From Spizellomyces punctatus DAOM BR117 (lineage: Eukaryota): 64,000 bases of DNA. The notes under the pieces are model-generated. The model was not told where the DNA came from and made no database searches. It saw only the letters and a list, made by a program, of their open reading frames with translations. This document shows, piece after piece, positions 17,666 to 38,292 of this stretch. Both the position numbers and the translations under genes were made by a program. The first letter of the stretch is position 1. The number at the start of each line of letters is the position of its first letter. Location of the stretch: assembly GCA_000182565.2 (NCBI GenBank), contig KQ257467.1; one strand, 5' to 3'.

Positions 17666-19108
17666 ATGCTCGCCGTTCGGTCACTCCCCCGTGTTGCCAG
17701 TGCCGCTACTGGGTAAGAGAGTGGATAAAAGATGCGCATTAGTTTTGGTAGGAGTGCGGGAGCCGCCTGAACAAGAGTGGAAAATTTTCATTCAATGGTG
17801 CTCTGGGGAAGAGATGTAGCGTTAGAAATGTTTGGAACATGGCCCTTGTTACTCCGTCGATAGCTGGGGAGTATGGTGCATTCGAACGACCGCTTGCTAA
17901 CGATGCTGTCGTTGTGACCTTTAGTCAACCGGCGATTTCGTTTGGCGTTCAAACTCGTAACATGGCAACTTTGAAAGAGAGTGAGTGATATGAGAGACTT
18001 TGAAGTCTAAGAATATTACTGACCACATTCATCTCTACAGTCTCCGTTCGATTGAAGTCTGTGTCGAACATTGCCAAAATTACAAAGTCAATGAAGATGA
18101 TTGCCTCTACAAAGGTTACCAAGGCACAGCGGGTGATGGAAACCGCTCGGGTGTACGGTAACTCTGCCACAGGTACGGAACGTTGGGTGGGCTAGATTCC
18201 AGTCACAAGCACCTTGTTGGTTATTCATCTAAATACCCGACAACACAGCTCTCTACCAGCATACTGGTACGTCGACCAACGAAGAAAGTGGCAAGCCCTT
18301 GGTCGTCGTTGTATCCTCGGATCGTGGATTGTGTGGAGGTATCCACAGTTCATTATCCAAAACCACCCGGAAGTATTTGTCTGCCCATCCCGAGGCTGCG
18401 CTAGCAATCTTGGGTCAGAAGGCCAAGGCGCAGCTGCAGCGTGACAGCCGTCAGCAGATTGTTGTGACTTTCGACAGTGTCGCAAAGAACCTGCCTACGT
18501 GGACCGAAGCGGCTCTGATTGCGGATGAGATCTTGAAGACGGGAATCGAGTTCGAGACTGCCAATATCATTTACAATAAGTTCAAATCTGTTATTGCATT
18601 TGACACCGTCATTGTTCCTGTTCACTCGTACAAAGCGCTTTTGGAGTCTCGTAAGTTTACATTGTTTGGCGGGATTTGTTGTAACAAATTGGAAAGGCAA
18701 TTTCTCATGTGGTGCGATGCTGTTAGCCAAATTGTCTGCCTACGAGGTGGAAGACCCCGTGCTGAAGAACTACGAGGAGTTTACTTTGGCCAACACCGTT
18801 TTCTGGGGTATTGCTGAGGGGAATGCATCCGAAATGGCGGCCAAGCGTACGGCCATGGAGAACGCTACAAAAAATGCTGGTGAGACCCTTTTTTTTTCTA
18901 TTTCTTGTATTTGCACCGGTTTGATACTAAGAATTGCCGTACTCTTCCAGGCGAGATGATCCAGAAGTTGACTTTGACCTACAACCGCTCTCGTCAAGCT
19001 ACTATCACAAACGAACTGGTAAGTGGTTTGTGTGCATTCTGCCGCTACCCACATTCTGACATGAGGTTTCCCAAGATTGACATTATCACTGGTGCCATGG
19101 CCGTTTAA
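17666..19108 (+). CDS. ATP3: Mitochondrial F1 ATP synthase gamma subunit (multi-exon)
   Basis: Presequence MLAVRSLPRVASAA; mature N-terminus ATLKEISVRLKSVSNIAKITKSMKMIA; SSDRGLCGGIH; SEMAAKRTAMENATKNA; YNRSRQATITNEL; IDIITGAMAV*. GT-AG introns. Confidence 0.97.
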
Positions 19109-19326: not shown

Positions 19327-19997
19327 TCACCGACACAAATGACATCTCCAGGTTCCTGTTAAAAGAAGCGTGAAGATTTTGCAGAACCACAACGTGAAGG
19401 AAAGGCAAAGACCTTTGGGTATTTTCTTTAGTGGTGGAGTGGTACAATAGGTATGAAACCCGCGATCACAGTCATCACAGAGTATGGTCATGGACTGTGG
19501 AAGAGAAATCGATTCGACCTCAGTACGTTGGTCCTTCCCTATTTCAGCGGGTTCTAACCTCGTTGCCCACTTCCTTACACACGACACAGCATTTGCAATC
19601 TCGACATTCCCAGTGATAGATCATCACATTTCGCGTTGCCTTGACGGAGAGATGTAAACATGAAGGGTGATCTGATAAATCTAGTGTTACGGCTCGGCTC
19701 CACTTGCCCAGGAATCTTCGGGCAATCTTACCACTCAAACTACAATTACTACAGCTCACTAGCTGCTCTGGAAAGCCATAAGCATTCTGATCTTCGGTCC
19801 CTCCGCACTGGAGACAAAAAGGACTATGGGATTGGTCAACATGTGTTGGTGACAGCGTCCAGTGGGTAGTGTCGCCACACTGTGCACCTTTTCAATGACG
19901 AGCCAGTAGGAACAAGAGCTGCGTCTGACTGGCTACGAGCATCCGTTATGTTCAAAGCGACATTTCCAGTGTTCGTCCTCTGTGTTTCTTGAGTCAT
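19327..19997 (-). CDS. Small stand-alone double PHD finger (DPF-type) protein, ~140-150 aa, 5 exons
   Basis: Spliced reading MTQETQ...PFCLQCGGTEDQNAYGFPEQLVSCSNCSLSDHPSCL...WECRDCKCCVVCKEVGNE..ILCDDCDRGFHTYCTTPPLKKIPKGTWRCHLCR*. The start codon is inferred. Confidence 0.8.
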
Positions 19998-20350
19998 CTG
20001 GTCCACAAGAGCGGAAGTGGAAAGTTGGGAGTTGGCTTACTCCACACTGGGGCACGTGACTAATAGGTAAATGAGGTACACAGCCCCGGCGGATCCCGCT
20101 GCTGACGTCCTCGTCGATTACCTCCGATCCCTCCTTCAAGTTTGTGGGGACTGAGCTTGGGGACCTGAAAGCTCACCACAAACAGTCTGCACCCCTGCAC
20201 CCTTAATAGATATTTTTTTGAAATAGCAATTTGTGCTTCAGATCTATCAACCCCCTACATCCAGCGACAGTGGACATGGCTTCCGCATCGGACAGCCATC
20301 CTCTTTTTTTCAGTAGGTGTATGCAACTGCTTTCTATCTGGTTGTATACC

Positions 20351-23300
20351 ATGCCAATTCTTCCTGTATTGGCATTAGTGGAAGATGACGATGAGAGGAG
20401 TGACCAGGAGGAATTGAGCCCAGGAGGATCGAGATCACCAAAATATACCGACGAGCCAGCGTCCTTGTTACAGACTGCTCGAACGCTCGTCGTGTCATTG
20501 TTTCTTCCTTACACCGTGTCCATCGATCCATCACCACCTGCGGTACAGCCAAACGCACCACTTGAACGGCGACGAAGTGTGGGTGCAATAGAGTTCAAAC
20601 GTCAGCGAAAAGCGTCCGAATCTCGAGGCCTACGACCAGATCCTCATTGGTGGCATATCGATACATCTGGATTAGGTAACATTGGGCTACAAAATGCATT
20701 GAAATCCATGCAGAGTCGCATGGCCGATCCCATCTGGATTGGATCGCTGGGGGTATCCACGAAAGATTGGTCAGACGAAACTAGAGCTAGCGTACGCTGC
20801 AAGCTAAGGAACGAATATAGCAGTGTCCCGGTGTTTCTTGCAGATGATGAAGTTGAAGGGCATTACAATCAATTTTGCAAGCAGGTATGACCAACTGCAT
20901 CAATGATGAATGATGGAGCGCAGCCGGTACATCACACCTGAGCGTTATTACTGTTGACCAACGTATCTTAACGATGTAATGCGGTGCCTTCACTACACTA
21001 CACTAATGATCCTTTCCTGAAGGTTCTGTGGAAACCGTTCCATTATCAACTACCTGATTATCCCAAAGGAGAAGCATATGAGGAGCAAGCATGGAAGCAC
21101 TACATCGCAGTCAACCAAAAGTTTGCCAATGCAATTGCGGAGACTTATCGAATAGGCGATATTGGTTTGTATCGTGTCAAAACTCATCGTCATACCGTTA
21201 TCTAACCGCGTAACAGTTTGGATCAACGATTACCATCTAATGTTGGTACCGGCAATGGTGCGCCAGCTAGTGCCAGGGGCGATCATTGGCTTCTTTCTTC
21301 ATATCCCGTTTCCGAGTTCTGAGATATTCCGCTGTCTCCACGGTGAGTGCAACGGCGCCTTAACTCTGGTGGATATCTTAAACATGACTGAGATCTGGTG
21401 ATAGTTCGAAAGCAGGTGTTGGAAGGAATGCTGGGCGCCGGTAAGCATCTGCACCATTGTGTCCACGTGGCTCTCGTGGGTGTCCTAATGCTTTATCTGC
21501 CCTTCAAGACTTGATAGGGTTTCAGGTGCGAGTACGCATACATTAAAATCGACTATATGACAATTGACACGAACGTCGAATATAGACGTATCCCTTCATG
21601 CGGCACTTTCTCATGACGTGCACGCGGTTGCTGGCATTGGAATCAACCCCCCGAGGAGTACAACTGGAAGATAGGGTTGTTTCCGTGATGCCTATACCGA
21701 TAGGTATCAATTTAGATGCGTTGAATGAAAAGAGGTATCGAGCGTCTGCACCACTTCCTTTTACGAACGCCAGCTTAACGTCTACTGCTTCTTAGAAACC
21801 ATCCCGAAGTTGCGGAAATCCTTGCGTCATTACGAGAAAAATACGATGGGATGAAAGTCCTTATTGGAAGAGACAAAAATGATTACGTGAAAGGGGTCCG
21901 CCAAAAAATGCTAGCTTTTGAGCGATTCCTAAAGGATCATCCTGAATGGCAGGGCAAGGTAAGGGAACACAACTTAATCGAAGTGAGGATGATCCTTACA
22001 AAACAGGCACCAGGTTGTCTTGATCCAAGTGGTTTTATCCACTACTGAGGCTAATGAGAATGAGTGCCGGGTGTCCGATGTGGTTGCCAGAATAAATTCT
22101 CGCTTCGGAAGCATTGAGTATTCGCCCGTTGTCTATTTGCATCAAGATATATCCTTCAGTCACTATTTGGCACTATTGACAGTGTGTACTGCTGTGATAT
22201 TTCGCTTGATGATATCGGAGCTAATGCTACTGTTTTCTACATATATAGCTAGCCGACGCATGTGTCATTACGTCGCTACGGGATGGAATGAACCTAACGT
22301 CACACGAATATGGTACGACCCTTAGCTACTGATCGATCAGCGCAATATTTCCATGACCATATGTTCCCTGTTACATCTAGTTGTATGTCAAGAAGAACAT
22401 CATGGGCCGCTCGTGATCAGTGAGGTGACTCTACACATGCGCTTGATTCTGATATGACATTGCACTGATATGGACCGTTAGTTTGCTGGAACATATGGAA
22501 GCTTTGGTGCTGCTCTCAGGGTTAGTATCATCAGTGGTGTAATAGTGAGATTGTCTGCTCAAAAATTTGTTGCTCATCCACCTACCAGGTGAACCCCTGG
22601 GACGTTCGTGAGGTTGCTGACGCCATCAACGACGCATTGACCATGGGCGATGAGGATAAGGCTTTCCGCTGGAAGGTAAGGACAACTCTAATGTGATCGA
22701 ATATGATAAATATTGAGTTGTTGTTTTTGTTAGGAACTGTACTCCCACGTAGTTGGAAACACTGGTACGTCGATAATTGCGTGCACATCCCACCATGTCT
22801 TTAACCTCTTAACTCGGTTAGCACAAACATACGTTGAGACTTTTACCAGCGAGCTTGTGAAAGCGCACGAAGAAGTTGCGCAAACTGTTTCCACCAGTAT
22901 ACCTCCTCTGCCAACAGATCATGTAGTGGCAGAGTACGCGCAAACTCGGAAACGAATCTTTGTATGTAATTTAGAGCGCGCTGATAGTGTATGGAGCCTT
23001 GACTAAACAAGTATGTCTTAGTAGTTCTTAGATCAAGATGGAACGATCATGAATTTCAACAAACATTCATCGAGCAATTTGCTATCAAACCGAATCCCTA
23101 CTGAAAAAGTTGTAAATCTCGTGAAAGCTCTAGCCAATGATCCACGAAATATTGTATATATCATGAGCGGGCGCTGTAAAGCGGAGATGAATGACTTCGC
23201 AAGAATACCGAATGTCGGATTGTGGTAAGTATCAATGGCCTGATTACTGATGAGCGGAAATCTGAAGCCGTCGATCATGCAGTGCTGAGAATGGCTGCTT

Positions 23301-28040: not shown

Positions 28041-28326
28041 ACCGTTACTGGGAAATCGTCGAATTGGATTGCTTCATTGTATATATCATCATTTATGTAG
28101 TCTGTACTTTAGGCTAGAGCTCATGCGATACCCTTGTATTAAAAAGAGGCATTTCATCTCGTTTGTACATTGCATGGATCTCCGTACACATTCGTATTCA
28201 GTCAAACACGGAACAGGTACCGCAGTCGCCATGAGTGTCCAAACATTCGCAGCAGGTGAAAACAGGTAGAACAATTATATTGTGGACCCTCACGCAACTC
28301 CCGTCCCTCCATACAAGGCATTCCCC

Positions 28327-28869
28327 TTAGTGGGCACGACGAGACTCGGCAATGACGTTGGACATCTCTTCGACCTTGCGCTTGGCACGGCCAAAGGTAC
28401 CGAGCTACAGAAAAGAATTTCATACAAATAAATTTCAACGTCGCCACAACAGAATTCCGCCAAACTGCTGTGCTACATACCCTCCTCTTTGCCAACTTTC
28501 TTGCACGCTTGTCGGCAGAGTTCTTGAGCAATTCCATAATGCGTTTTTCGTAGGGAGAGTATCCGGCAACCTCACGGACGAGGTCACGGACAAACTTTGT
28601 GCGTTTGGCGAGCACCTACAAGTGGGACGAGAGAACTCGTCAGACATGGTCTCTTTTCTGCGACCGATACCCTCCCCATATCCGTTGATTCCGCCGAGAG
28701 CGACGCCCCGCACCACCAGTTCCCAACAATCTTTCCACCGCCCCGTGCCGTCATCTCCCAAAATGCTTACCCCCTTGCGGTTAACGGGCTTGGCCTTGAG
28801 TTCACGCTTGGTGGTGACGTGACCCTTGTTGATGCCAGTGGCAATTCCGGACTTGGGTGTTGGTGCCAT
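28327..28869 (-). CDS. RPL36: 60S ribosomal protein eL36 (3 exons)
   Basis: [89 protein letters not shown]. Confidence 0.97.
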
Positions 28870-29197
28870 CCTTGTGATCGTGTCCCAGGAACTTCGCAAA
28901 GAGGAAGAACAAGAGGGCGAATGCAGGGAAAGAAGCCTTGGCTGTCGGGGCGAATTCGTCGCTCAAAAACCACAGCGAAAAGAAAATTGCATCACGTGGA
29001 CGGGTCACATGACAGTGACGGTTTCGATTCTCGCTTGAGGCAATTCACAAGTTCTGGTCAAGGGTTTCTTGTTCAACTTACACCATTCTTGAAGCGACAT
29101 TTAGAATTACTCCATTGGCAGATTGTACTCACGCACTGACTTGAATCACACGCCAGTGGTGACTTTGTGAGGTTGCCGTTCTTCAATGCCGCCTGGT

Positions 29198-32100
29198 ATG
29201 GACGACCTTTTAAAGATCGTCCTGGAGGAAGTGGCTTTGGAAGAGAGCCAAGGTTGGTTATAAACTCGCAAAGGATAAATCTCGTATCATTGATCATATC
29301 CTTGGAAGCAACAGTTAAAAGTGCATTGTTAGTTGGGGGGTATCGTTGATACGCCAAGAAAGACTGTGGATGCACGCACCAAGAGGAGAGCCTTGTTGGT
29401 GGAAGGTGCGAGGTTCGGGTCTCGGTGGGAACACTCCCCGATGGAAAGCACTCAGTGTCTTTCTTGCCTAAACTCTTGTCGCTGTCGCGTTAATTCTAGA
29501 GAAAATCCTGTTAAAAATAGCTCTATCGACGAACTAACCTATCCTGTACCAGGTTGCACACCCGAAAGACTGTGGAGCTTACTGGAGGAACGCCGTAGCA
29601 AAGATCAAAACGCAGAAGACGACACCGATGACGATGCTTTGGAGCTGAGAAGAATGGCCGGAAATGGTAGGGATGCATGTTGTTTTCTCTAATAAGTGAT
29701 CGTTTTCTAATTCGCATATTCTGACCACATATTCTCACATTAGCAGATTCGATCAGGAGATATGTGCAGCTGGACAGCCACATGAAAGAATATTTATGGT
29801 CTTTTATAATATCCGTGGACGATATACGGTGTGTAAATCGGCAGGTTGGTAATGTCCATTCAGTGGCAACGCCGAAAAGCGCAAAGAAGGGCAAAGGAAA
29901 ACGAAAATCAGAACAGGTGTGTGCTGTCTTAGGCTCTAGGAACGCTTCACGCTTTTGCTTCAAACAGCCTAACATTGCTACAGGAGCCCGCCGAATCGAC
30001 CCTTGATGTGGATAATACCACTCCAATCCCTACGAATGAGTTGACATCCATGTCGTTGCGACAAGCTTTAGAAAAGTATGGCGATGGATTGCACATTGTC
30101 GCAAGCGAGGAAGTCCGGCGGATTGCAATTCTTGGCCATTATGACGTTAGTAGCATGCGCTTTTTTTGGTCCCTTGGGCAGAAGAGTTCATCTCATGCGA
30201 TTACGGCGTAGCCAACCGTGAAACTCAGCGCAGCATTATTTGCGACGCTTTCCCTGATTGCAAAGTGTCGAAGTGCCGGCATCACGCAAATGGAGCTTTC
30301 AAAAGTTCTACATTACGATCCTCGGTCGTTGTTCCACTACATCAAAGTGCTGGGGGAGATGAAATTTATGTAAGATCATGTATCTGACAGGGAGACATAT
30401 GATTGGTTACTTACCCTTTGTCAGTGTCAAGTTTCCTCTTGTAACAAAAGGCACCTACACCAACCTTTGTATCCACAAACGGTTTGCGGATCAAAATAAT
30501 ACATACCAAGAGTACAAAAAGCGAACTGAACAGATGGTGGGACCCGCCAAGATCGAAGGCCTTGACTCTGCCGTTGCCAATAGTACCATATGCAAATATA
30601 ATCCCCAGACGGCGGTTAGTCACTCAGCTGGACACAACGCAGTCTCATATCACAGCGAGCTCGTTAAGGAACAAATCACTACGTTGCTCAGGGCAGCCAA
30701 GAACCACGTCATGGTCGTTCAGGATTTAATGCAGGCACTGGTATGCTGACAGAATACAACAATCTGAGGAAACAATCATGGTGATCGACTCTTTTGCAGA
30801 AACTCGATACTAGTAAAAGCCGCTTTGAGCGTAAATGGTTTAACCGCCTTATCGAAACACTCGTCAAGGGCGGATTCCTTGAACGCGTTAATGTACCCCG
30901 GAGACGAGATGGATGGGAATGCAAGGGTCATGATCGATGCGTCCGCCTCTTGAAAATGTATTTGCCATCCGGCGGTGTCAATATTGGACTTGATTTGCCC
31001 TCGAGAACGTCATTGCAGTATCAGTCGAAACAGCAGACGGCAGATCCTGAAAGAGATATCATTATGGGTGAAGGAGGAGTTTTGGCTGATCTACCATTTG
31101 AGTGGCAAGTGTATCGTCTTATTGCACTCTCTGGCAAAAAGGGTGTTACGGCAGGGGTATGCATATCATATCTTGTACATACCTTCTCGGTTTGTTAATC
31201 TGATCTCTTTGACCAGGTCGTTCAACGCTCGTTAAATAACGTCGGTAGCCGTTTATTGAATAAAATCTTGACGAAGCTGTTAAAACCTCCGGATGCCCCA
31301 GTGACTTCCATTGGGGCCAATCGAGTTGCCGAATTTGTTGGCCGCGAGCGTCGGTACCGGTACTACTCTTCAGAAGCGTACAACCATATGATGGGACATA
31401 CCGAACAAGCTGCTGAGCTGGGCTTGCTAGAGAAAATGGTGGCATCTGGTGGTCAAGGTGAGACACGGAGCACGCCCAACTCGAAGGGGCCTCCGGAGAA
31501 GAAGAGACGATTGGTGAATGCGAGTACTGCAAATACTGTGGAATCGGCGCCTGAGCAGCTAGCAGGTGAGATTTGCATGACTATGACGATCGTCCCATGT
31601 GTGCTTACCGTTGCACGCTGCTCAGATGGGAGCCGCAACTCCAACACGGCCGATTGCTTATCATCGCTCGGAGACGTAAGTTTGCATCGTATTCGTTGTA
31701 GTTCTTGCGCTGTGCCCTATTAATGCTTCACAGGTCATTTGCACCCTCTGCTACAAGAGTGACAATGAAGATCAGATACTGCTGTGTCATCATTGCAAAT
31801 CGGGAATTCACACATACTGCCACAACCCACCGTTGACCGCGATACCGCAAGGAGACTTTTTCTGCAGCTCAACATGTAGAAAAAGCGTGAAACCGACTGG
31901 AGAACAGGGATCCGCTACCCAATCCTCACAATTTGATCCTATGGACGTTGACTCTTCCACTGGTCAGTGCAGTTGTGACAGCATGTTGATTGTAGCACTG
32001 TTTTTGATGGTTGTGACTGGACAGAGCAACAAAGTGTGACACAGCCCCTGCCTGTGTCGCCGATAGCAAGGTCTAAAACCGCAATAAGTACACCAACGAC

Positions 32101-35100
32101 CACCGCCATACCATCAGGTATTCTGCGTTGAAAAGTATTCAATGGCGTGGCATATTTGACCAAGGATATTATTAACAGGCGCAACCACTCCTGGCTCTGG
32201 CCTATACAACCGCACATCGATCACTGCGGTCCGTCGTCGCAACCATTTGTTACAGCTGGTTGAGGACAAGAAGATTCTTGAAGTTGGACATTTGTTAGTG
32301 AAGGCGTACCAGGATCTAGTGTCGTCACAGCAAGACGGATCCACTCCTGTTCACACTGTTGACAAAAAGACCTTGGTCCGGACCGCAAAGGCCATGGAGG
32401 CGGATGGGTTACTTAAGATTCACACTATCACGCTACCTCAGATGAACGGCGGATATAGTAGCAAGATGCTATTCCTCCACCGGTCGCTGGAGCCAACAGA
32501 TAACAGAGTTCAAGAGTACATTGCTATGATGCACGATCGTCATGTGTTACTAGGCGGCAAGTATAAACCCGCCAAAGTTGAGATCGAGGATCTTGAGGTT
32601 GAGCGATTGGAAGATCTTCACAAACGGGCCATGATTGAAAAGGAATATAGTCGATCAGCGACGCCAACAATGTGGGGGCAAGTTGGGGTCTTCAGAGGGG
32701 TGAATGGAGACGAGCTGGCGCATATGGCTAATACCCTTGGTTCTGGCGGGTCCCACATCATGGAAGGGATTCAGAATTCACAGACCCGAGTATCAAGTCC
32801 TGCGGTTGGAGCTGGTACCCACGTGTCGCCAAATAACGAGATCGATGTCAAAACACCAACGGGCCAGAGTCTGGACTTGCAAAGGCAAACCGAATCCAAG
32901 AAAAAACTGCCAGGCAGCCAAGATCCCGATTCGGATCAGTTTTGGCTCAACGTTGCACAACACTATGGATATATCAACGCGAAGATGCTACGTGCAAGAT
33001 ACCTTCACGAATGGCTGTGGAACCGGGTGTTAGATAGGAAAGATCAGTCTGAGCGCACACCTGCGTCCATTTCCGGAGGTCCGTATAAGAATGGGGGTAT
33101 ATTCCAGGCCGCAATGCTGTTCCGTGAGTTGTCCTTTGACATGTTTCTGAAAATTGTTGGACAAACCGTGGCAAGTCCGGTTGTCGATGAATTTATGCGG
33201 CGTCCGGATTATGCAGATGTGAAGATTGGGGACCTGCCACCTGCCTTACGCACTGTGGTATTTGGAGGGAAGACCCGATACCGGCGATCACTTAAGCAAA
33301 TACTGGATATTTTAGAGGCCCTACACATTGTAATGCCCATGCCTCGCCTTGACGAAAACGGCAAGTACGTACATGCAGGTCTTGGAGACGAAAGGGCGAG
33401 TATTGCTGCGATGGCCGCTGACTATCTCCATCCCGTGTATCGGCTGGAATGGAGAGTACCACTGTATGACTGGGGAGCAGATGATCAACGGCTGTTGCGG
33501 CATTATACGATTGAAAGTTTGGAGGATTTAAAGCAGTATTGGTTCCAATTGGAGTTTACTTGTTCACGAAAGGATACGCAACGGATCCAGCGGTGGAGAG
33601 CTTACGAGGAGGGACAAACTGAGGAATCGTTGGAGCAGCACGACAATGGCCCCATTGACCTCACCACTGAAGAGAATTATTCCTTAAAAGTTCGCTCTGA
33701 GCGTCCAGGTTATTTGATGAAGGATAGTCATCCACTCGCTCATTTGAATAACGTGCGCAATTGGCACACTACTTTCCCCTATTCCGCACATCAAAGAAAT
33801 ATTCTTGAGTCGCACGTGGATCGCAGAACAGGTGAAACCCCTCTTGACAATGACCTCTTGTGCAGGCAGCTCGCCGAGGATACCGGACTCGGCATCGCCA
33901 GAGTAAAGTATTACTTTAAGCGAGCGGAGGATATGTATCAAGCCAAGGTTGCACTTCAACAACAGGCTCGGGAGAAGAGAAAGTTAACGCTTGAAAAGAG
34001 GCGCCAGGAGCTTGGTGTAGGGCGATATGCTGTTGGCATAAGACCGAGATCTTTGAAGACCGGGAGAATTACTAGAGCGGCTCGCGCCACATTTGACCAC
34101 GAAGGGCAGGAGGAAGCGGGCGGCAAAGAGCAAGTCCAACGTGCTGGGCGCAAAGTGCGAGAGGTCCTCCAACGACAGCGTGAAAGCCGGGTTCCAGGAC
34201 GCAGATCTTTCCGTGCCGGTGCAGGAAATGGCCCAGCTGCCGGCAGAGGGCCTGTTGTTGCCGTTGCCTCGGGTCTGGAGGAACTGAATGAGGAAAACAT
34301 CCCGGTTATTGCTGACGAAGATCGTTTCCAAACTCAGTATCAACAAGTCGCCAAACGAGTACGGCCCAATTGGACTGCGCAAGATGACGAAACGCTTCTT
34401 CATGCATATGCAATTATGCATAATCGATCAGGCCCCCGCTTCCAGTGGATACCGCTTGCAGCTCTCTTTGAAGGCAGCGACCTGTCAGCCAGGAAGGGCA
34501 GCAGAATGACTGAGCTGTGTCGCCGGAGGATGAACGTTCTTCTGAAATCCCCAGTCACACAAGACCGGTTGAATAATTTGACTTCTCAGTGGCCTGCGAT
34601 TCTCGCGAAAGGTGTTGCGGAGAACAAGCTGGAAGCACAGGAAAATGTGGATATCCAGAACCTCAACCTGGCTCCCATGATTGAATACTTCATCACAACC
34701 AATGCAGCCTTGGCCAAGTATGTATATGGGCGTATTCAGACATGACTTGAGTTCTAAAAATTACTCAATAAATCCCGAGCAGGTCAAAAACGGACTCCGC
34801 ACCGTTGATACCACTTCCTTCGACTTCTCAAGAGCTCGAAAGGTTCTTTGTCGTGAAAAATAAACTAAGCCGGAGTATCCAGGCGCTGACGGATCTGGAG
34901 GATGAGCTGGATGAACGATACAGCTCGCGAAGCAAAATGTCTGTTTTGTACGCCAGGTCACTGACAGGGTTGCTTACGAATGAAGATCAAGTTGATTTTG
35001 CTGTGTCCTCTGACCCGACATGTGAGCAAGTAGAGGAGAATGTGGTCAAGGCTGTCATCAAGGTAATTGCATAGCACTCTCAAATCTTTGTATTGTTTCT

Positions 35101-36809
35101 GAAGCCCAGGATCATAGATGATCTTGATGACTCCCGAGTCAGCATACGACCCTACTCATGCATTTTGGATCCTTCATGCTTTCCCTCACCATGTGATTGC
35201 GAACGCACTTCGCAAAATGAATGAAGATCAGTCCATTGTAAAGATCAAGGGGAGCACTGATCGCAGAGTGCCTGGTCGTGGATTCGTTTTGTCAGACAAG
35301 TGTGTGGCTCGCTTTTTTTTCACATTCATGCAATTGTTTCTGAGATAAATGGCTAGGTTCCTTTCTACAATCGCAGGACCTCTTCCGGATCGTTTGCTCC
35401 CCCAAGCAGTGGCATACCATAGAGAACTTTTTGGAGAACTCAAGAATGGGCAGTCAATGTTTTCCCCATTTGCCAATAGCGGGGCAATGGCGGCTCTCCT
35501 GGAGGCCGTCGCTGCTCGGTTGATCAGATTACAACCTAAATTCAATATTCGACTGGAAACGCACGGAGTTTTTGAATTATATGATAGTGAGTGATCAGCA
35601 GAGATAGAGTTCGTTTACCTGGTGTGTTTAATCTGCTTTTGCAGACCCGTCAATGGGGAATGCCGACGTATGCATTCTGCCTCCGGCCACCGAGTTACTC
35701 GTTTCAAGGACAACGACAACTGACAAGGGAAAACGGAAAGCAGATGATATTGAAGTCCCATCAGATGCCAAACGAACCAAGGATGGTCATACCGAACCAC
35801 CGCGTCCTGAGGTGGACGAGGAAGTGGGAACGATCAGTACGACGGCGTGTTATGGTGAAACAGCGGAGGAGGTGCTGAATAACGCGCCCATTGCGAAGGA
35901 GAGCGATCGTATTTGGATGCGCAAGATCTACGAAGTGGTCAAAGAGGCTGGCATTTGTGGGGTTTCGGCGTTGAACTTGCAGGTATGTAGTCTGGGATGT
36001 AGTTGTTACGCAGAGAATAAAGTTCATGTGCTTTTTACGGTTTCAGTCCACATTCCGTGGTTTTGGCATTGACGGCAATCAACTGGACAAATACTTGCGT
36101 ATGTTTTCGACAACGTTTCGATTGGCAAAACCACCAGTACCACTCGTATCACAAGTCGGATTTTCCGACATTCGATACGTCTCCGACGACAATCTATCTC
36201 GATGGACAGTCGCCACTACCCGACAAGCTTATGAACAGAGCGGGGACATAGTTGTGGAATCAATGCAGCTTGATGCCCCGCGCGCTCCCAAAATGGGCTC
36301 GGATGATTTTACAGCGGCGCGAATGTGGTACGATATCAATGGAAAGCAAGTTGATAGTGTAAAGCGGGCCTGCATGGAAGCTGTTTTGGGCACTATAGTG
36401 CAGAAACCTGGGATATACGAGGTACGTTGTGCGTTAGTTGGCAAGTCATTGCAGCACACAATTGAATGTCATGTCGGCTGACAGGCGAAGCTGTATCGGC
36501 GCTTGGGAAGTGTCATGACGAGAGTAGAACTGGCAGAGATCCTTCAAATACTCGTGGACCGCGGCGCTTGTCGAAGAAAGTGCCTTCTAAAGCCCCGACC
36601 TATAACAAGCTTATTTGGTGGCTTGTTTGGACCAAATGGCCACGTTGAAGAGTACACCGAATGCGGTAAGAGGGCACTCCAATTTGGTTTGCGAAAGTCA
36701 TTGGTGATGAATAATGTGGGTGCATATTGTAGCGGAAACGTATCTCGACGATCATCGCATAAGCTGTTACTGGCCTCAAGAAGAATGGTACTTGAAGACT
36801 CTAATGTGA
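29198..36809 (+). CDS. TFC3: RNA polymerase III transcription factor TFIIIC B-box-binding subunit (Tfc3/tau138/GTF3C1-like) with an internal PHD finger
   Basis: N-terminus MDDLLKIVLEEVALEESQGCTPERLWSLL; B-block winged-helix segment LIAKCRSAGITQMELSKVLHYDPRSLFHYIKVL...TNLCIHKRF; QVYRLIALSGKKG; VDKKTLVRTAKAM; WTAQDDETL; C-terminal MWYDING...VLGTIVQKPGI. About 16 exons. Confidence 0.85.
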
Positions 36810-37014: not shown

Positions 37015-37833
37015 CTATTGACCACCATATAGTTCATGGATCCGGTCCCAAGTGCGCTCGAAGTGGGTGGGGCACTCATACCCGTGTGGGTTCTTGGTCA
37101 GGTAATCCTAAGAACAATAAATCAGTTATATTCGGCATCTAAATTGCTCGCTGAATTTCATCCTACTACCTGATGATAGTCTTCCGCATTCCAAAATGTC
37201 CCCACAGGCTCTACCGTCGTTGATACCGGGTGACTGCCAAAATGGTGTTGGACCGCTTTCACTTGCTCTCGCGCAATCTTCTGCTGCTGCTCATTATGGT
37301 ACAGAATGGCCGACCTGTACTGCGTACCAATGTCTCCCCCTTGTCGATTCTTTGTCGTTGGGTCGTGCATACGGAAGCTGTACGCAACACATCAAGCAGG
37401 TCAACTTAGGTTGAAGTCACCGATTTTACATCTCCGAAACCTACAAGAAGTCCACTAATTCTTCATAGGACAGCTTCGTCGGATCATACTTGATCTGTAG
37501 CGCCTCGGAGTGACCCGTTGTTCCACTGCACACTTGCTTGTACGTGGGACGTTCTGCCGAACCACCAGCATATCCCACCAGCGTTTCTATGCCATTTTGC
37601 CCAAATTTCTTTTCAAAGGATTTCTCAACACCCCAAAAGCAACCTGCCGCAAAGGTTGCGAGATCGTATTTTCCCTGGGGGTCTGGTGCAAAGCCTGTAC
37701 CTGCGGAGGATGTTGAACCCATCTTGTTTGGTGCGAATGAAAAGCAACGCTGGATGTTTGTGATGCGGAATAAACTTGTCGCACGAGAAGCTGTGAAAGA
37801 GTTCCTGATTGTGTTTGGTATGATGGGATTCAT
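37015..37833 (-). CDS. MSRA: Peptide methionine sulfoxide reductase A (3 exons)
   Basis: [62 protein letters not shown]. Alternative in-frame ATG at 37722. Confidence 0.96.
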
Positions 37834-38292
37834 GCACACTTTTTCTTTTCGGAAACCCACAGCGGGAGGACTCTCCCGCAACTTTGGCCAGGAGTGGCGA
37901 GAAGGACGCTTACGCTGTGCTTTCCGTGCTGTGCTGGGTGAGTCAACTTGTAATTCAACTTTCCACCAATTTTCAAGCTTTCAACTAGACTTTTTGGTTG
38001 AGATATCATTACTGTTTTAAACTACATACACCTTCATTGTCTGTATATTTCAATGATTCCAAGTTTTGGAATTGTTCATCTTTTTTCCAAGTAGGATTTC
38101 ATGCAAACTCATCCAAGTTTAAACTTGTAGTATCATATCTCTGCCTCGCACGTGATGAAGCAAGTCATCCATCATCCGCTTGCAAGTTTCGTTCCGTCGT
38201 ATCATCTCCCAACAATCCGTCCACAAAAGCATTTCCAAATAACCCATAACTATTGAGCGTAGAAGCTGGTGTCAACTTCGTAGTTTGCAAAT

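What the first reader, a model, noticed from the sequence alone, without database searches (positions are those of the whole stretch)
31734..31880. PHD finger spliced in frame into the TFIIIC B-box subunit (Tfc3/GTF3C1)
Seen: an exon missed by the ORF track encodes VICTLCYKSDNEDQILLCHHCKSGIHTYCHNPPLTAIPQGDFFCSSTC, a C4HC3 PHD finger. It is joined by canonical GT-AG introns in compatible phase to upstream (..SLGD|VIC) and downstream Tfc3 exons, within a low-complexity linker. Known: yeast Tfc3 and human GTF3C1 are winged-helix arrays without a PHD; this PHD pattern resembles BAZ/KDM5-PHD1 readers of unmethylated H3K4. Inference: a TFIIIC that reads histone tails directly, linking Pol III or insulator sites to chromatin state. 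I am not aware of this being described.
Basis: partly seen in the sequence, partly recalled or inferred. Interest (0 to 1): 0.72.

Follow-up and report, generated by a model that had tools for sequence, protein, structure and literature searches.

The report
PHD finger in chytrid TFIIIC subunit
In this chytrid fungus the largest subunit of the RNA polymerase III factor TFIIIC carries a well-conserved histone-reader-type zinc finger between two of its DNA-binding domains, which the yeast and human proteins lack and which I could not find described in print.

Summary
Bases 31734-31880 translate exactly as quoted and score as a PHD finger (Pfam E 1.3e-9). The window is Spizellomyces punctatus DAOM BR117. 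The deposited 2088-aa protein maps letter for letter onto 19 GT-AG exons (29186-36806, +). The finger lies in exon 10, which runs to 31962, not 31880.

The host is the TFIIIC largest subunit (Tfc3/GTF3C1). The finger sits in the loop between WH4 and the extended winged helix, inside the B-box-binding module.

It is not a one-off. A full or partial PHD occupies the same loop in 14 of 16 named chytrid species and both Basidiobolus species, and in 0 of 15 other named fungi, fish or oomycete homologues. It is also found in 25 of the 104 of the 150 best library representatives where both flanking domains could be located. It is the most conserved segment of the protein.

Its closest solved relatives are BAZ2B/BAZ2A, KDM5A/B PHD1 and DPF3, readers of unmethylated H3K4. 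The H3 Ala1 and Lys4 contact residues are kept. The two Arg2-pocket aspartates are His and Lys in S. punctatus.

Histone reading is therefore plausible for the family and less certain here. The gene model is already public. I found no paper describing the feature.

The parts
29186..36806 (+). Coding region of the TFIIIC largest-subunit gene (Tfc3/Sfc3/GTF3C1 orthologue): 19 exons, 2088 aa, stop TGA at 36807-36809
   Evidence: Exact exon-by-exon match to deposited protein P0002; all 18 introns are GT-AG
29198..29602 (+). WH1 (Pfam WH_GTF3C1_N, aa 5-39), exons 1-2
   Evidence: 31.5 bits; coordinates computed from the exon map
30239..30491 (+). WH2 = B-block_TFIIIC domain (aa 181-246), exons 5-6
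   Evidence: 61.2 bits, cut-off 22
30660..30970 (+). WH3 (Pfam DUF7599, aa 303-386), exons 6-7
   Evidence: 55.8 bits. Equated with WH3 from domain order in the human protein; this is an inference
31082..31384 (+). WH4 (Pfam DUF7646, aa 424-504), exons 7-8
   Evidence: 20.9 bits, below the cut-off of 27 in this protein. A local profile built from the orthologues finds it in 116 of 169 fetched proteins
31490..31513 (+). Basic motif PPEKKRRL (aa 540-547) in the linker before the finger; looks like a nuclear localisation signal
   Evidence: A comparable basic run (P-x-[RK]4-5) aligns in 8 of 10 orthologues; the function is inferred
31626..31675 (+). Exon 9 (50 nt, aa 565-581), low-complexity linker ending ..SSLGD
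31734..31962 (+). Exon 10 (229 nt, aa 582-658, phase 0 in and phase 1 out): the whole PHD finger plus a basic and low-complexity tail
   Evidence: 229 is not a multiple of 3, so skipping this exon alone would shift the frame
31740..31877 (+). PHD zinc-binding core, C584-C629: C-x2-C-x11-C-x2-C-x4-H-x2-C-x14-C-x3-C
   Evidence: All eight ligands are at least 90% conserved in 25 aligned rows
32025..32117 (+). Exon 11 (93 nt), Ser/Thr/Pro-rich linker
   Evidence: aa 630-702 are 84% small, polar or charged residues
32220..32543 (+). Extended winged helix (Pfam eWH_GTF3C1, aa 703-810), start of exon 12
   Evidence: 45 bits, cut-off 30
34356..35540 (+). DUF6581 region (aa 1415-1750), exons 12-15. 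This is the C-terminal part, which in the human protein belongs to the tauA half
   Evidence: 141 bits. The assignment to tauA is inferred from passages of PMC11811891

Best explanation
Exon 10 encodes a genuine Cys4-His-Cys3 PHD finger that is a built-in part of the only TFIIIC largest subunit found for this organism. It hangs on two flexible, low-complexity tethers of about 75 residues each. One tether leads to WH4, which in the human complex is part of the rigid tauB core. [quoted passage not shown] Most likely mechanism (inferred): while the winged helices hold the B-box DNA, the finger catches the free N-terminus of histone H3 on a neighbouring nucleosome, preferring H3 that is not methylated on Lys4. 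TFIIIC would then bind by DNA and histone together. That would lengthen its stay, or bias it towards B-boxes in chromatin without H3K4 methylation, in the way the TAF3 PHD helps TFIID. Shown: the exon, its splicing into the deposited model, its place in the domain order, its conservation, and its sequence class. Inferred: the ligand and the consequence. I put the anatomy at about 0.95, H3-tail binding in the family at about 0.5, and H3-tail binding in S. punctatus itself at about 0.35.
For: Anatomy: exact 19-exon match to the deposited protein and the Pfam domain order WH1, WH2, WH3, WH4, PHD, eWH, DUF6581. Human TFIIIC220 has WH4 at 367-437 and eWH at 612-714 with nothing modelled between them; WH2 and WH4 are rigid, while WH3 and eWH become ordered on DNA (passages of PMC11811891). 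Yeast tau138 has WH4 at 334-416 and eWH at 550-640 (passage).

Conservation: a PHD lies in the same loop in 12 named chytrid species as a complete C4HC3, of which Blyttiomyces is seen only by my local profile (23.5 bits) and the ligand pattern, not by Pfam at E 0.001. It is present as half a finger in 2 more, and in both Basidiobolus species. Of the 150 best representatives of an exhaustive search, 104 had both flanking domains located and 25 of those carry it. Among 12 full-length carriers the PHD core has 56.6% mean pairwise identity. That compares with 49.6% for WH2, 51.5% for WH4, 36.8% for eWH, and 8.5-11.9% for the flanking linkers.

Class: the best solved relatives are BAZ2B (E 4.2e-15), BAZ2A, KDM5A PHD1, Lid, DPF3 PHD2 and KDM5B PHD1. 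BAZ2A and BAZ2B bind H3 with unmodified K4 (PMC4291147 passages). Using the alignments, the K4 contact is kept (KDM5A E305 / BAZ2A D1688 = E593). The Ala1 pocket and N-terminus clamp are also kept (L309/L1692 = L597, P331/P1714 = P619, G333/G1716 = G621, W335 = F623).

Analogy: TFIID binding is helped by the TAF3 PHD and H3K4me3 (abstract of PMC3770614).
Against: No binding, expression or localisation data exist here. In KDM5A PHD1 the H3 Arg2 side chain is held by D312, described as critical for affinity, and by D315. S. punctatus has His602 and Lys605 at those places. 17 of 24 aligned TFIIIC fingers have Asp at the first position, and 12 have Asp and 6 Asn at the second. Powellomyces (S, K) and Gaertneriomyces (Q, R) share the loss. 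S. punctatus is also the only one of the 24 with Phe where 16 have Trp, and W335A strongly weakens KDM5A binding. The finger is absent from 15 of 15 named homologues outside chytrids and Basidiobolus, so TFIIIC works without it. The last zinc pair is C-x3-C rather than the C-x2-C of BAZ2A, and its effect on the fold was not modelled.
Confidence: 0.5

Rival explanations
1. The finger is functional but its ligand is not histone H3. It might dock a short N-terminal or internal peptide of another protein, such as a TFIIIC or TFIIIB subunit, a remodeller, condensin or cohesin. At least in the Spizellomyces/Powellomyces/Gaertneriomyces group it may have drifted to a new partner.
For: The Arg2 pocket is lost in S. 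punctatus (H602, K605), and likewise in Powellomyces and Gaertneriomyces. Even so, the eight zinc ligands and the PP-L-x-IP-x-G loop stay conserved, which argues for continued selection on some binding function. TFIIIC is reported to interact with cohesin and condensin (introduction passage of PMC11811891).
Against: The Lys4 and Ala1 contact residues of the H3K4me0 readers are still in place. Most orthologues keep the full H3-type pocket. No candidate partner was identified.
Confidence: 0.3
2. The finger with its basic tail (RKSVKP here; K-G-K in most orthologues) mainly helps DNA binding, nuclear import, or folding of the WH4-eWH loop. It would then be a structural zinc module rather than a reader.
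For: A basic stretch directly after the last cysteine is common in the orthologues (consensus C-x-x-K-G-K). The finger sits next to the DNA-contacting WH4 and eWH. A basic NLS-like motif lies 35 residues upstream.
Against: The conserved positions are the peptide-binding ones of known readers, not only the ligands. Flexible linkers with 8.5-11.9% identity on both sides do not suggest a fixed structural role.
Confidence: 0.12
3. The exon is an annotation artefact or a minor alternative exon, and the main protein has no PHD.
For: I had no transcript data. The NCBI name contains 'variant'. Skipping exons 9 and 10 together (279 nt) would keep the frame. Some public orthologue models lack the finger or hold only half of it.
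Against: Independent gene models from 12 other named chytrid species and 2 Basidiobolus species place a complete finger in the same loop. It is the most conserved segment of the protein. Skipping exon 10 alone shifts the frame. The half-fingers look like mis-called introns, for example an inserted stretch inside the Thoreauomyces finger.
Confidence: 0.04

Closest known systems
TFIIIC largest subunit: yeast tau138/Tfc3, S. pombe Sfc3, human TFIIIC220/GTF3C1
   Same: Same order of WH1-WH4, extended WH and C-terminal DUF6581 region. The C-terminus aligns with human GTF3C1 chain 8cli_A at E 1.7e-11. A profile of the chytrid proteins finds fish GTF3C1 at E 2e-34.
   Different: The human and yeast proteins have only an unmodelled loop between WH4 and eWH, and no PHD is listed among their domains (passages). 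Fish GTF3C1 shows no PHD in Pfam. Here that loop holds a conserved PHD finger.
BAZ2A (TIP5) and BAZ2B PHD fingers (PDB 4q6f, 4qf3)
   Same: Best sequence matches among solved structures (E 1.7e-13 and 4.2e-15). They share the acidic D-N-[DE]-[DE] turn, the L-L-L-C strand and the P-x-G-D-[WF]-F-C loop, which in BAZ2A hold H3 Ala1 and unmodified Lys4.
   Different: The BAZ2 fingers sit beside a bromodomain in ISWI-remodeller subunits. Their last zinc pair is C-x2-C, against C-x3-C here. They have C-D-G-C-D where S. punctatus has C-H-H-C-K.
KDM5A/KDM5B/Lid PHD1
   Same: E 2e-10 to 1e-9. E305, L308-L310, P331 and G333 have identical or conservative counterparts, and W335 corresponds to F623.
   Different: The Arg2-binding D312 and D315 are His and Lys in S. 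punctatus (and the alignment). In KDM5A the finger regulates a demethylase allosterically; no enzyme is attached here.
TAF3 PHD finger of TFIID (works like; not a relative tested here)
   Same: A general transcription factor that combines promoter-DNA contacts with a PHD-histone contact (abstract of PMC3770614).
   Different: TAF3 reads H3K4me3 for Pol II promoters. None of the 60 PDB chains listed is named TAF3, so it is not among this finger's best sequence matches, and the class and probably the mark differ. This finger belongs to the Pol III factor.

Membership tests
TFIIIC largest subunit (Tfc3/Sfc3/GTF3C1) | B-block_TFIIIC (WH2) domain above Pfam's curated cut-off | tested here: met
   61.2 bits against a cut-off of 22; exon 5 alone scores 41 bits
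TFIIIC largest subunit (Tfc3/Sfc3/GTF3C1) | N-terminal array WH1-WH2-WH3-WH4-eWH in that order | tested here: met
   PF23704 5-39, PF04182 181-246, PF24538 303-386, PF24657 424-504 (below its cut-off here), PF24101 703-810. The order matches human TFIIIC220
TFIIIC largest subunit (Tfc3/Sfc3/GTF3C1) | C-terminal part homologous to the tauA-bound part of GTF3C1 | tested here: met
   DUF6581 at 141 bits; aa 1969-2047 match 8cli_A 1984-2061 at E 1.7e-11
TFIIIC largest subunit (Tfc3/Sfc3/GTF3C1) | Sole copy in the genome, so it is the working subunit | tested here: inconclusive
   Only one S. punctatus protein appeared in the word-indexed searches. The genome itself could not be searched
TFIIIC largest subunit (Tfc3/Sfc3/GTF3C1) | Binds the B-box and assembles with the other TFIIIC subunits | not testable with these tools
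   Needs biochemistry
PHD finger (Pfam PF00628) | Profile score above the curated cut-off | tested here: met
   38.3 bits for the ORF and 32.5 bits in the whole protein; cut-off 24
PHD finger (Pfam PF00628) | Cys4-His-Cys3 ligands with canonical spacing | tested here: met
   C584, C587, C599, C602, H607, C610, C625, C629. The last pair is C-x3-C, as in 22 of the 23 complete TFIIIC fingers. All eight are at least 90% conserved
PHD finger (Pfam PF00628) | Cross-braced two-zinc fold | not tested
The fold is inferred from E 4e-15 to the BAZ2B crystal-structure sequence
H3K4me0-reading PHD fingers (BAZ2A/B, KDM5A/B PHD1, DPF3 type) | Acidic residue that pairs with unmethylated Lys4 (KDM5A E305, BAZ2A D1688) | tested here: met
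   E593 aligns with both (alignments; residues). The position is Asp or Glu in 16 of 24 TFIIIC fingers
H3K4me0-reading PHD fingers (BAZ2A/B, KDM5A/B PHD1, DPF3 type) | Ala1 pocket and N-terminus clamp (L309, P331, G333, W335 in KDM5A; L1692, P1714-G1716 in BAZ2A) | tested here: met
   L597, P619, G621, F623. Family counts: L 18/24, P 22/24, G 20/24, W 16 + Y 6 + F 1 of 24
H3K4me0-reading PHD fingers (BAZ2A/B, KDM5A/B PHD1, DPF3 type) | Acidic Arg2 pocket (KDM5A D312 and D315) | tested here: not met
   H602 and K605 in S. punctatus. The feature is met in most orthologues: D in 17/24 at the first position, D 12 + N 6 of 24 at the second
H3K4me0-reading PHD fingers (BAZ2A/B, KDM5A/B PHD1, DPF3 type) | No aromatic cage for methyl-lysine | tested here: inconclusive
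   No alignment to a methyl-lysine reader was made. All top solved matches are of the unmodified-H3 class (the classification beyond BAZ2 and KDM5A is recalled). Tallant et al. state that this class lacks the cage
H3K4me0-reading PHD fingers (BAZ2A/B, KDM5A/B PHD1, DPF3 type) | Binds H3(1-10) peptide, weakened by K4 methylation | not testable with these tools
   Needs peptide binding assays

The most novel reading that the evidence does not exclude
The TFIIIC of early fungi carried a histone H3-tail reader inside its B-box-binding module, so one polypeptide read both a Pol III promoter element and the methylation state of the neighbouring nucleosome. It was lost on the way to Dikarya, Mucoromycota-like lineages and other groups. 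This would make chromatin-state-dependent TFIIIC binding, including binding at non-tRNA 'extra TFIIIC' or boundary sites, a hard-wired ancestral property rather than something supplied by partner proteins.
Probability: 0.3. Interest if true: 0.7.

Novelty: new variant of a known kind. Interest (0 to 1): 0.5.

Why it matters
TFIIIC is known for two roles: promoter recognition for Pol III, and chromosome organisation at insulators, extra-TFIIIC sites and cohesin or condensin contacts (introduction passage of PMC11811891). In yeast and human no histone-reading domain is listed in its largest subunit. A conserved PHD finger tethered between two B-box-contacting domains would be a direct physical link between Pol III promoter recognition and the histone H3 tail. 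It would parallel the TAF3 PHD in TFIID for Pol II and the BAZ2A PHD in NoRC for Pol I genes.

The idea can be tested. S. punctatus can be transformed (titles and abstract openings of PMC7213984 and PMC10267658). The finger is also small enough for peptide arrays.

The finding has a practical side for annotation. Several public orthologue models mis-splice or lose this exon. One is auto-named 'Methyl-CpG-binding domain-containing protein 9', presumably because of the finger.

Tried and rejected
The isoform question stays open.

There is therefore no model and no fold search.

3. Origin of the finger: a tree of the fingers alone (33 rows, 55 columns) was unresolved and did not separate the 29 TFIIIC fingers from 4 outgroup fingers. 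The single-origin argument rests only on the shared position and the C-x3-C signature.

4. Taxa of unnamed PHD-bearing representatives (P0075, P0090, P0136, P0045, P0050, P0061 and others): a profile search with 28 of them returned only 6 rows and named 3 of the 28. It also named representative P0060, which was not in the query. The two Atlas calls gave no taxa, and an earlier Atlas call failed on the size limit. Their organisms stay unknown.

5. Host tree (FastTree on WH2-WH4 plus eWH, finger loop left out; 101 rows of which 28 carry the finger). The trait needs 10 changes, or at least 6 counting only strongly supported branches, and is clustered (0 of 500 shuffles as low). Many branches are weak, and some 'absences' are gene-model errors, so I did not infer numbers of gains and losses.

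7. Considered and rejected: a separate small PHD gene nested in an intron. The exon has no start or stop of its own in frame, it is joined exactly in the deposited protein, and it is collinear in the orthologues. An antisense gene was also rejected: only 46-59-aa stop-to-stop ORFs lie opposite.

8. The genome-contig collection holds only bacteria and archaea, so no orthologous DNA could be fetched to check the 'missing' exons.
Full report
**The observation.** Bases 31734-31880 (+) translate to VICTLCYKSDNEDQILLCHHCKSGIHTYCHNPPLTAIPQGDFFCSSTCR. The stop-to-stop ORF that holds this stretch matches Pfam PHD at E 1.3e-9 (38.3 bits, curated cut-off 24). A Cys4-His-Cys3 pattern occurs once in the six-frame ORFs of the whole window, at 31740-31877 (+), and never in 100 shuffles. 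So the finger is there, and it is not chance.

**The gene.** The large downstream ORF (32160-34745) is 100% identical to a 2088-aa protein of Spizellomyces punctatus DAOM BR117. NCBI calls it 'hypothetical protein, variant' and UniRef calls it 'B-block binding subun..'.
- A script that walked the window codon by codon reproduced that protein exactly from 19 exons, 29186-36806, all with GT-AG introns.
- Exon 9 is 31626-31675 and exon 10 is 31734-31962. Exon 10 is 229 nt, enters in phase 0 and covers aa 582-658. Exon 11 is 32025-32117 and exon 12 is 32179-34717.
Its end coordinate, 31880, is only the end of the zinc-finger motif.
- Exon 10 is not a multiple of three, so skipping it alone would shift the frame. 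Skipping exons 9 and 10 together (279 nt) would not.
- Retaining intron 9 runs into a stop at 31723.

**The host protein and the place of the finger.** Pfam finds these domains in order: WH_GTF3C1_N (5-39), B-block_TFIIIC (181-246), DUF7599 (303-386), DUF7646 (424-504, below its cut-off here), PHD (584-626), eWH_GTF3C1 (703-810) and DUF6581 (1415-1750).
- The C-terminus matches human GTF3C1 chain 8cli_A at E 1.7e-11 and is collinear with it.
- A profile of the chytrid proteins reaches fish GTF3C1 at E 2e-34.
- Passages of the human cryo-EM paper give WH1 1-163, WH2 175-247, WH3 253-337, WH4 367-437 and eWH 612-714. WH2 and WH4 belong to a rigid tauB core, while WH3 and eWH become ordered on the B-box. 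The roughly 550-residue tauB-tauA linker comes after the eWH (PMC11811891).
- Yeast tau138 has WH4 at 334-416 and eWH at 550-640 (PMC11724288).
- The chytrid finger therefore sits in the WH4-eWH loop of the B-box-binding module. It is flanked by linkers that are 79% and 84% small, polar or charged residues.

**Conservation in named species.** By Pfam, local profile and pattern, the same loop holds a complete finger in 12 chytrid species:
- Spizellomyces
- Borealophlyctis
- Geranomyces variabilis (two entries)
- G. michiganensis
- Gaertneriomyces
- Fimicolochytrium
- Rhizophlyctis
- Zopfochytrium
- Podochytrium
- Nowakowskiella
- Dinochytrium
- Blyttiomyces (divergent; seen only by my local profile and the pattern)

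The remaining named species fall out as follows.
- Half a finger is present in Powellomyces and Thoreauomyces. Their models look mis-spliced: an extra stretch is inserted inside the Thoreauomyces finger.
- No finger is present in Quaeritorhiza or Chytridium lagenaria. The latter is a partial model.
- That makes 14 of 16 named chytrid species, spanning Spizellomycetales, Rhizophlyctidales, Cladochytriales and Chytridiales.
- Both Basidiobolus species also carry it.
- None of 15 other named homologues has it: Blastocladiella, Piromyces, Dissophora, Geosiphon, Funneliformis, five basidiomycetes, two ascomycetes, two fish and Peronospora. The last three fetched were judged from precomputed Pfam lists only.

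**Conservation in the wider library.** An exhaustive phmmer search used the finger-poor Blyttiomyces N-terminal half as query against 1.84 billion representatives. It gave 391 hits at E no greater than 0.001.
- Of the best 150, both flanking domains could be located in 104. Of those, 25 carry a finger in the loop, 19 of them at 35 bits or more on my local profile. Three more truncated proteins carry it too.
- That profile was built from 13 of the named fingers, so only the other hits are independent.
- Of these 28 carriers, 23 are complete. 22 of the 23 end in C-x3-C, where BAZ2A has C-x2-C. This shared oddity argues for one origin.
- Among 12 full-length carriers, chosen out of the 23 complete ones for having all domains, the finger core is the best conserved segment. 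Its mean pairwise identity is 56.6%, against 49.6% for WH2, 51.5% for WH4, 36.8% for eWH, and 8.5-11.9% for the linkers.
- On a FastTree of the winged helices, with the loop left out, the carriers cluster (0 of 500 shuffles as low) but need 6-10 changes. A second carrier clade (P0075, P0090, P0136) belongs to an organism I could not name.

**What kind of finger.** The best solved relatives, in order, are:
- BAZ2B (E 4.2e-15)
- BAZ2A (E 1.7e-13)
- KDM5A PHD1
- Drosophila Lid
- DPF3 PHD2
- KDM5B PHD1

WSTF, DPF2, CHD4, UHRF1, KAT6A/B, PHF21A, TRIM24 and AIRE follow.
- Tallant et al. show that BAZ2A and BAZ2B bind H3 with unmodified K4. The N-terminus is held by the carbonyls of P1714-G1716, Ala1 sits in a pocket of L1692 and P1714, and K4 contacts D1688. 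There is no aromatic cage (passages).
- The KDM5A PHD1 study gives an Ala1 pocket of L309, P331 and W335. K4 contacts E305 and L308. Arg2 contacts D312, described as critical, and D315 (passages of 10.1101/715474).
- Through the printed alignments, S. punctatus keeps E593, I596, L597, L598, P619, G621 and F623 at those places.
- It has H602 and K605 instead of the two Arg2 aspartates. Among 24 aligned TFIIIC fingers, Asp is present in 17 at the first position, and Asp in 12 plus Asn in 6 at the second.
- So the family looks like a reader of the unmodified H3 N-terminus. The S. punctatus copy, like those of Powellomyces and Gaertneriomyces, has a changed Arg2 pocket.

**Mechanism and rivals.** The best reading is a tethered histone-tail handle on tauB that adds a nucleosome contact to B-box binding. 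This resembles the way H3K4me3 and the TAF3 PHD add to TATA binding by TFIID (abstract of PMC3770614). The anatomy is shown; the ligand is inferred. The rivals are:
- a non-histone peptide ligand, favoured by the altered Arg2 pocket
- a structural, DNA-binding or import role for the finger and its basic tail
- an annotation artefact, which I consider very unlikely given the conservation

**Novelty.** I ran these full-text searches:
- 'TFIIIC' + 'PHD finger': 31 papers, 20 listed
- 'GTF3C1' + 'PHD': 24 papers, 15 listed
- 'B-block binding subunit' + 'PHD': 4 papers
- 'Tfc3' + 'PHD': 8 papers
- 'TFIIIC' + 'histone reader' + 'tRNA genes': 1 paper
- 'Spizellomyces' + 'PHD finger': 2 papers
- 'TFIIIC' + 'PHD domain': 16 papers

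In none of the listed papers does the title or abstract opening concern a PHD in a TFIIIC subunit.
- Where I opened papers, 'PHD' meant a PhD programme or another protein.
- The dedicated paper on the evolution of this subunit contains neither 'PHD' nor 'zinc', although it used the Batrachochytrium protein (PMC3945056, term search).
- The conservation analysis of the human-structure paper covered 29 fungi (methods section). Its one occurrence of 'phd' was not among the passages shown.
- Subscription journals and supplements were not searched.
- The architecture is, however, already visible in public protein records. I therefore rate it a new variant of a known kind, of moderate interest.

**Left open.**
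- Transcript support and isoforms
- The true state of the 'missing' chytrids
- The organisms behind the unnamed carriers
- Any binding data

Noticed in passing
window 19327-19620 (-): A second, unrelated PHD-finger exon (Pfam PHD 32.9 bits, matching profile positions 11-45 only, so probably split by an intron). It lies on the minus strand between an ATP-synthase-gamma-like ORF (18233-18817 +) and a glycosyltransferase-20-like ORF (20222-20890 +, 30.1 bits, below its Pfam cut-off of 32.5). It also gave a 48%-identity tblastn hit to the TFIIIC finger.
   Followed up: partly
window 28202-28615 (-) and 37441-37980 (-): Neighbours of the TFIIIC gene. A ribosomal protein L36e gene lies head-to-head upstream (Pfam 74.9 bits). 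A peptide methionine sulfoxide reductase (MsrA-type, 88.4 bits) lies tail-to-tail downstream.
   Followed up: partly
window 31490-31513 (+), aa 540-547: Basic motif PPEKKRRL in the linker before the finger. A comparable basic run aligns in 8 of 10 orthologues, so this is probably a nuclear localisation signal.
   Followed up: partly
window 31788-31799 (+), aa 600-603 of the finger (C-H-H-C) with K605: S. punctatus, Powellomyces and Gaertneriomyces have replaced the two aspartates of the usual C-D-x-C-D motif (H/K, S/K and Q/R respectively). Most other TFIIIC fingers keep them. This is a lineage-specific change in the presumed Arg2 pocket.
   Followed up: yes
public orthologues P0003, P0006, P0020, P0008 (not in the window): Apparent gene-model problems. 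The Powellomyces model lacks the first half of the finger. The Thoreauomyces model has an inserted stretch inside it. The Nowakowskiella model is fused to an annexin. One Geranomyces entry is auto-named 'Methyl-CpG-binding domain-containing protein 9'.
   Followed up: partly
unnamed representatives P0075, P0090, P0136 (with P0095, P0102 nearby on the tree): A separate clade of 2300-2440-aa TFIIIC homologues with a divergent finger in the same loop (longer first loop, C-x3-C end). The organism is unknown. P0095 has 12 cysteines in the loop but did not match my finger profile.
   Followed up: partly
whole window: ARAGORN finds no tRNA gene in the 64 kb.
   Followed up: yes
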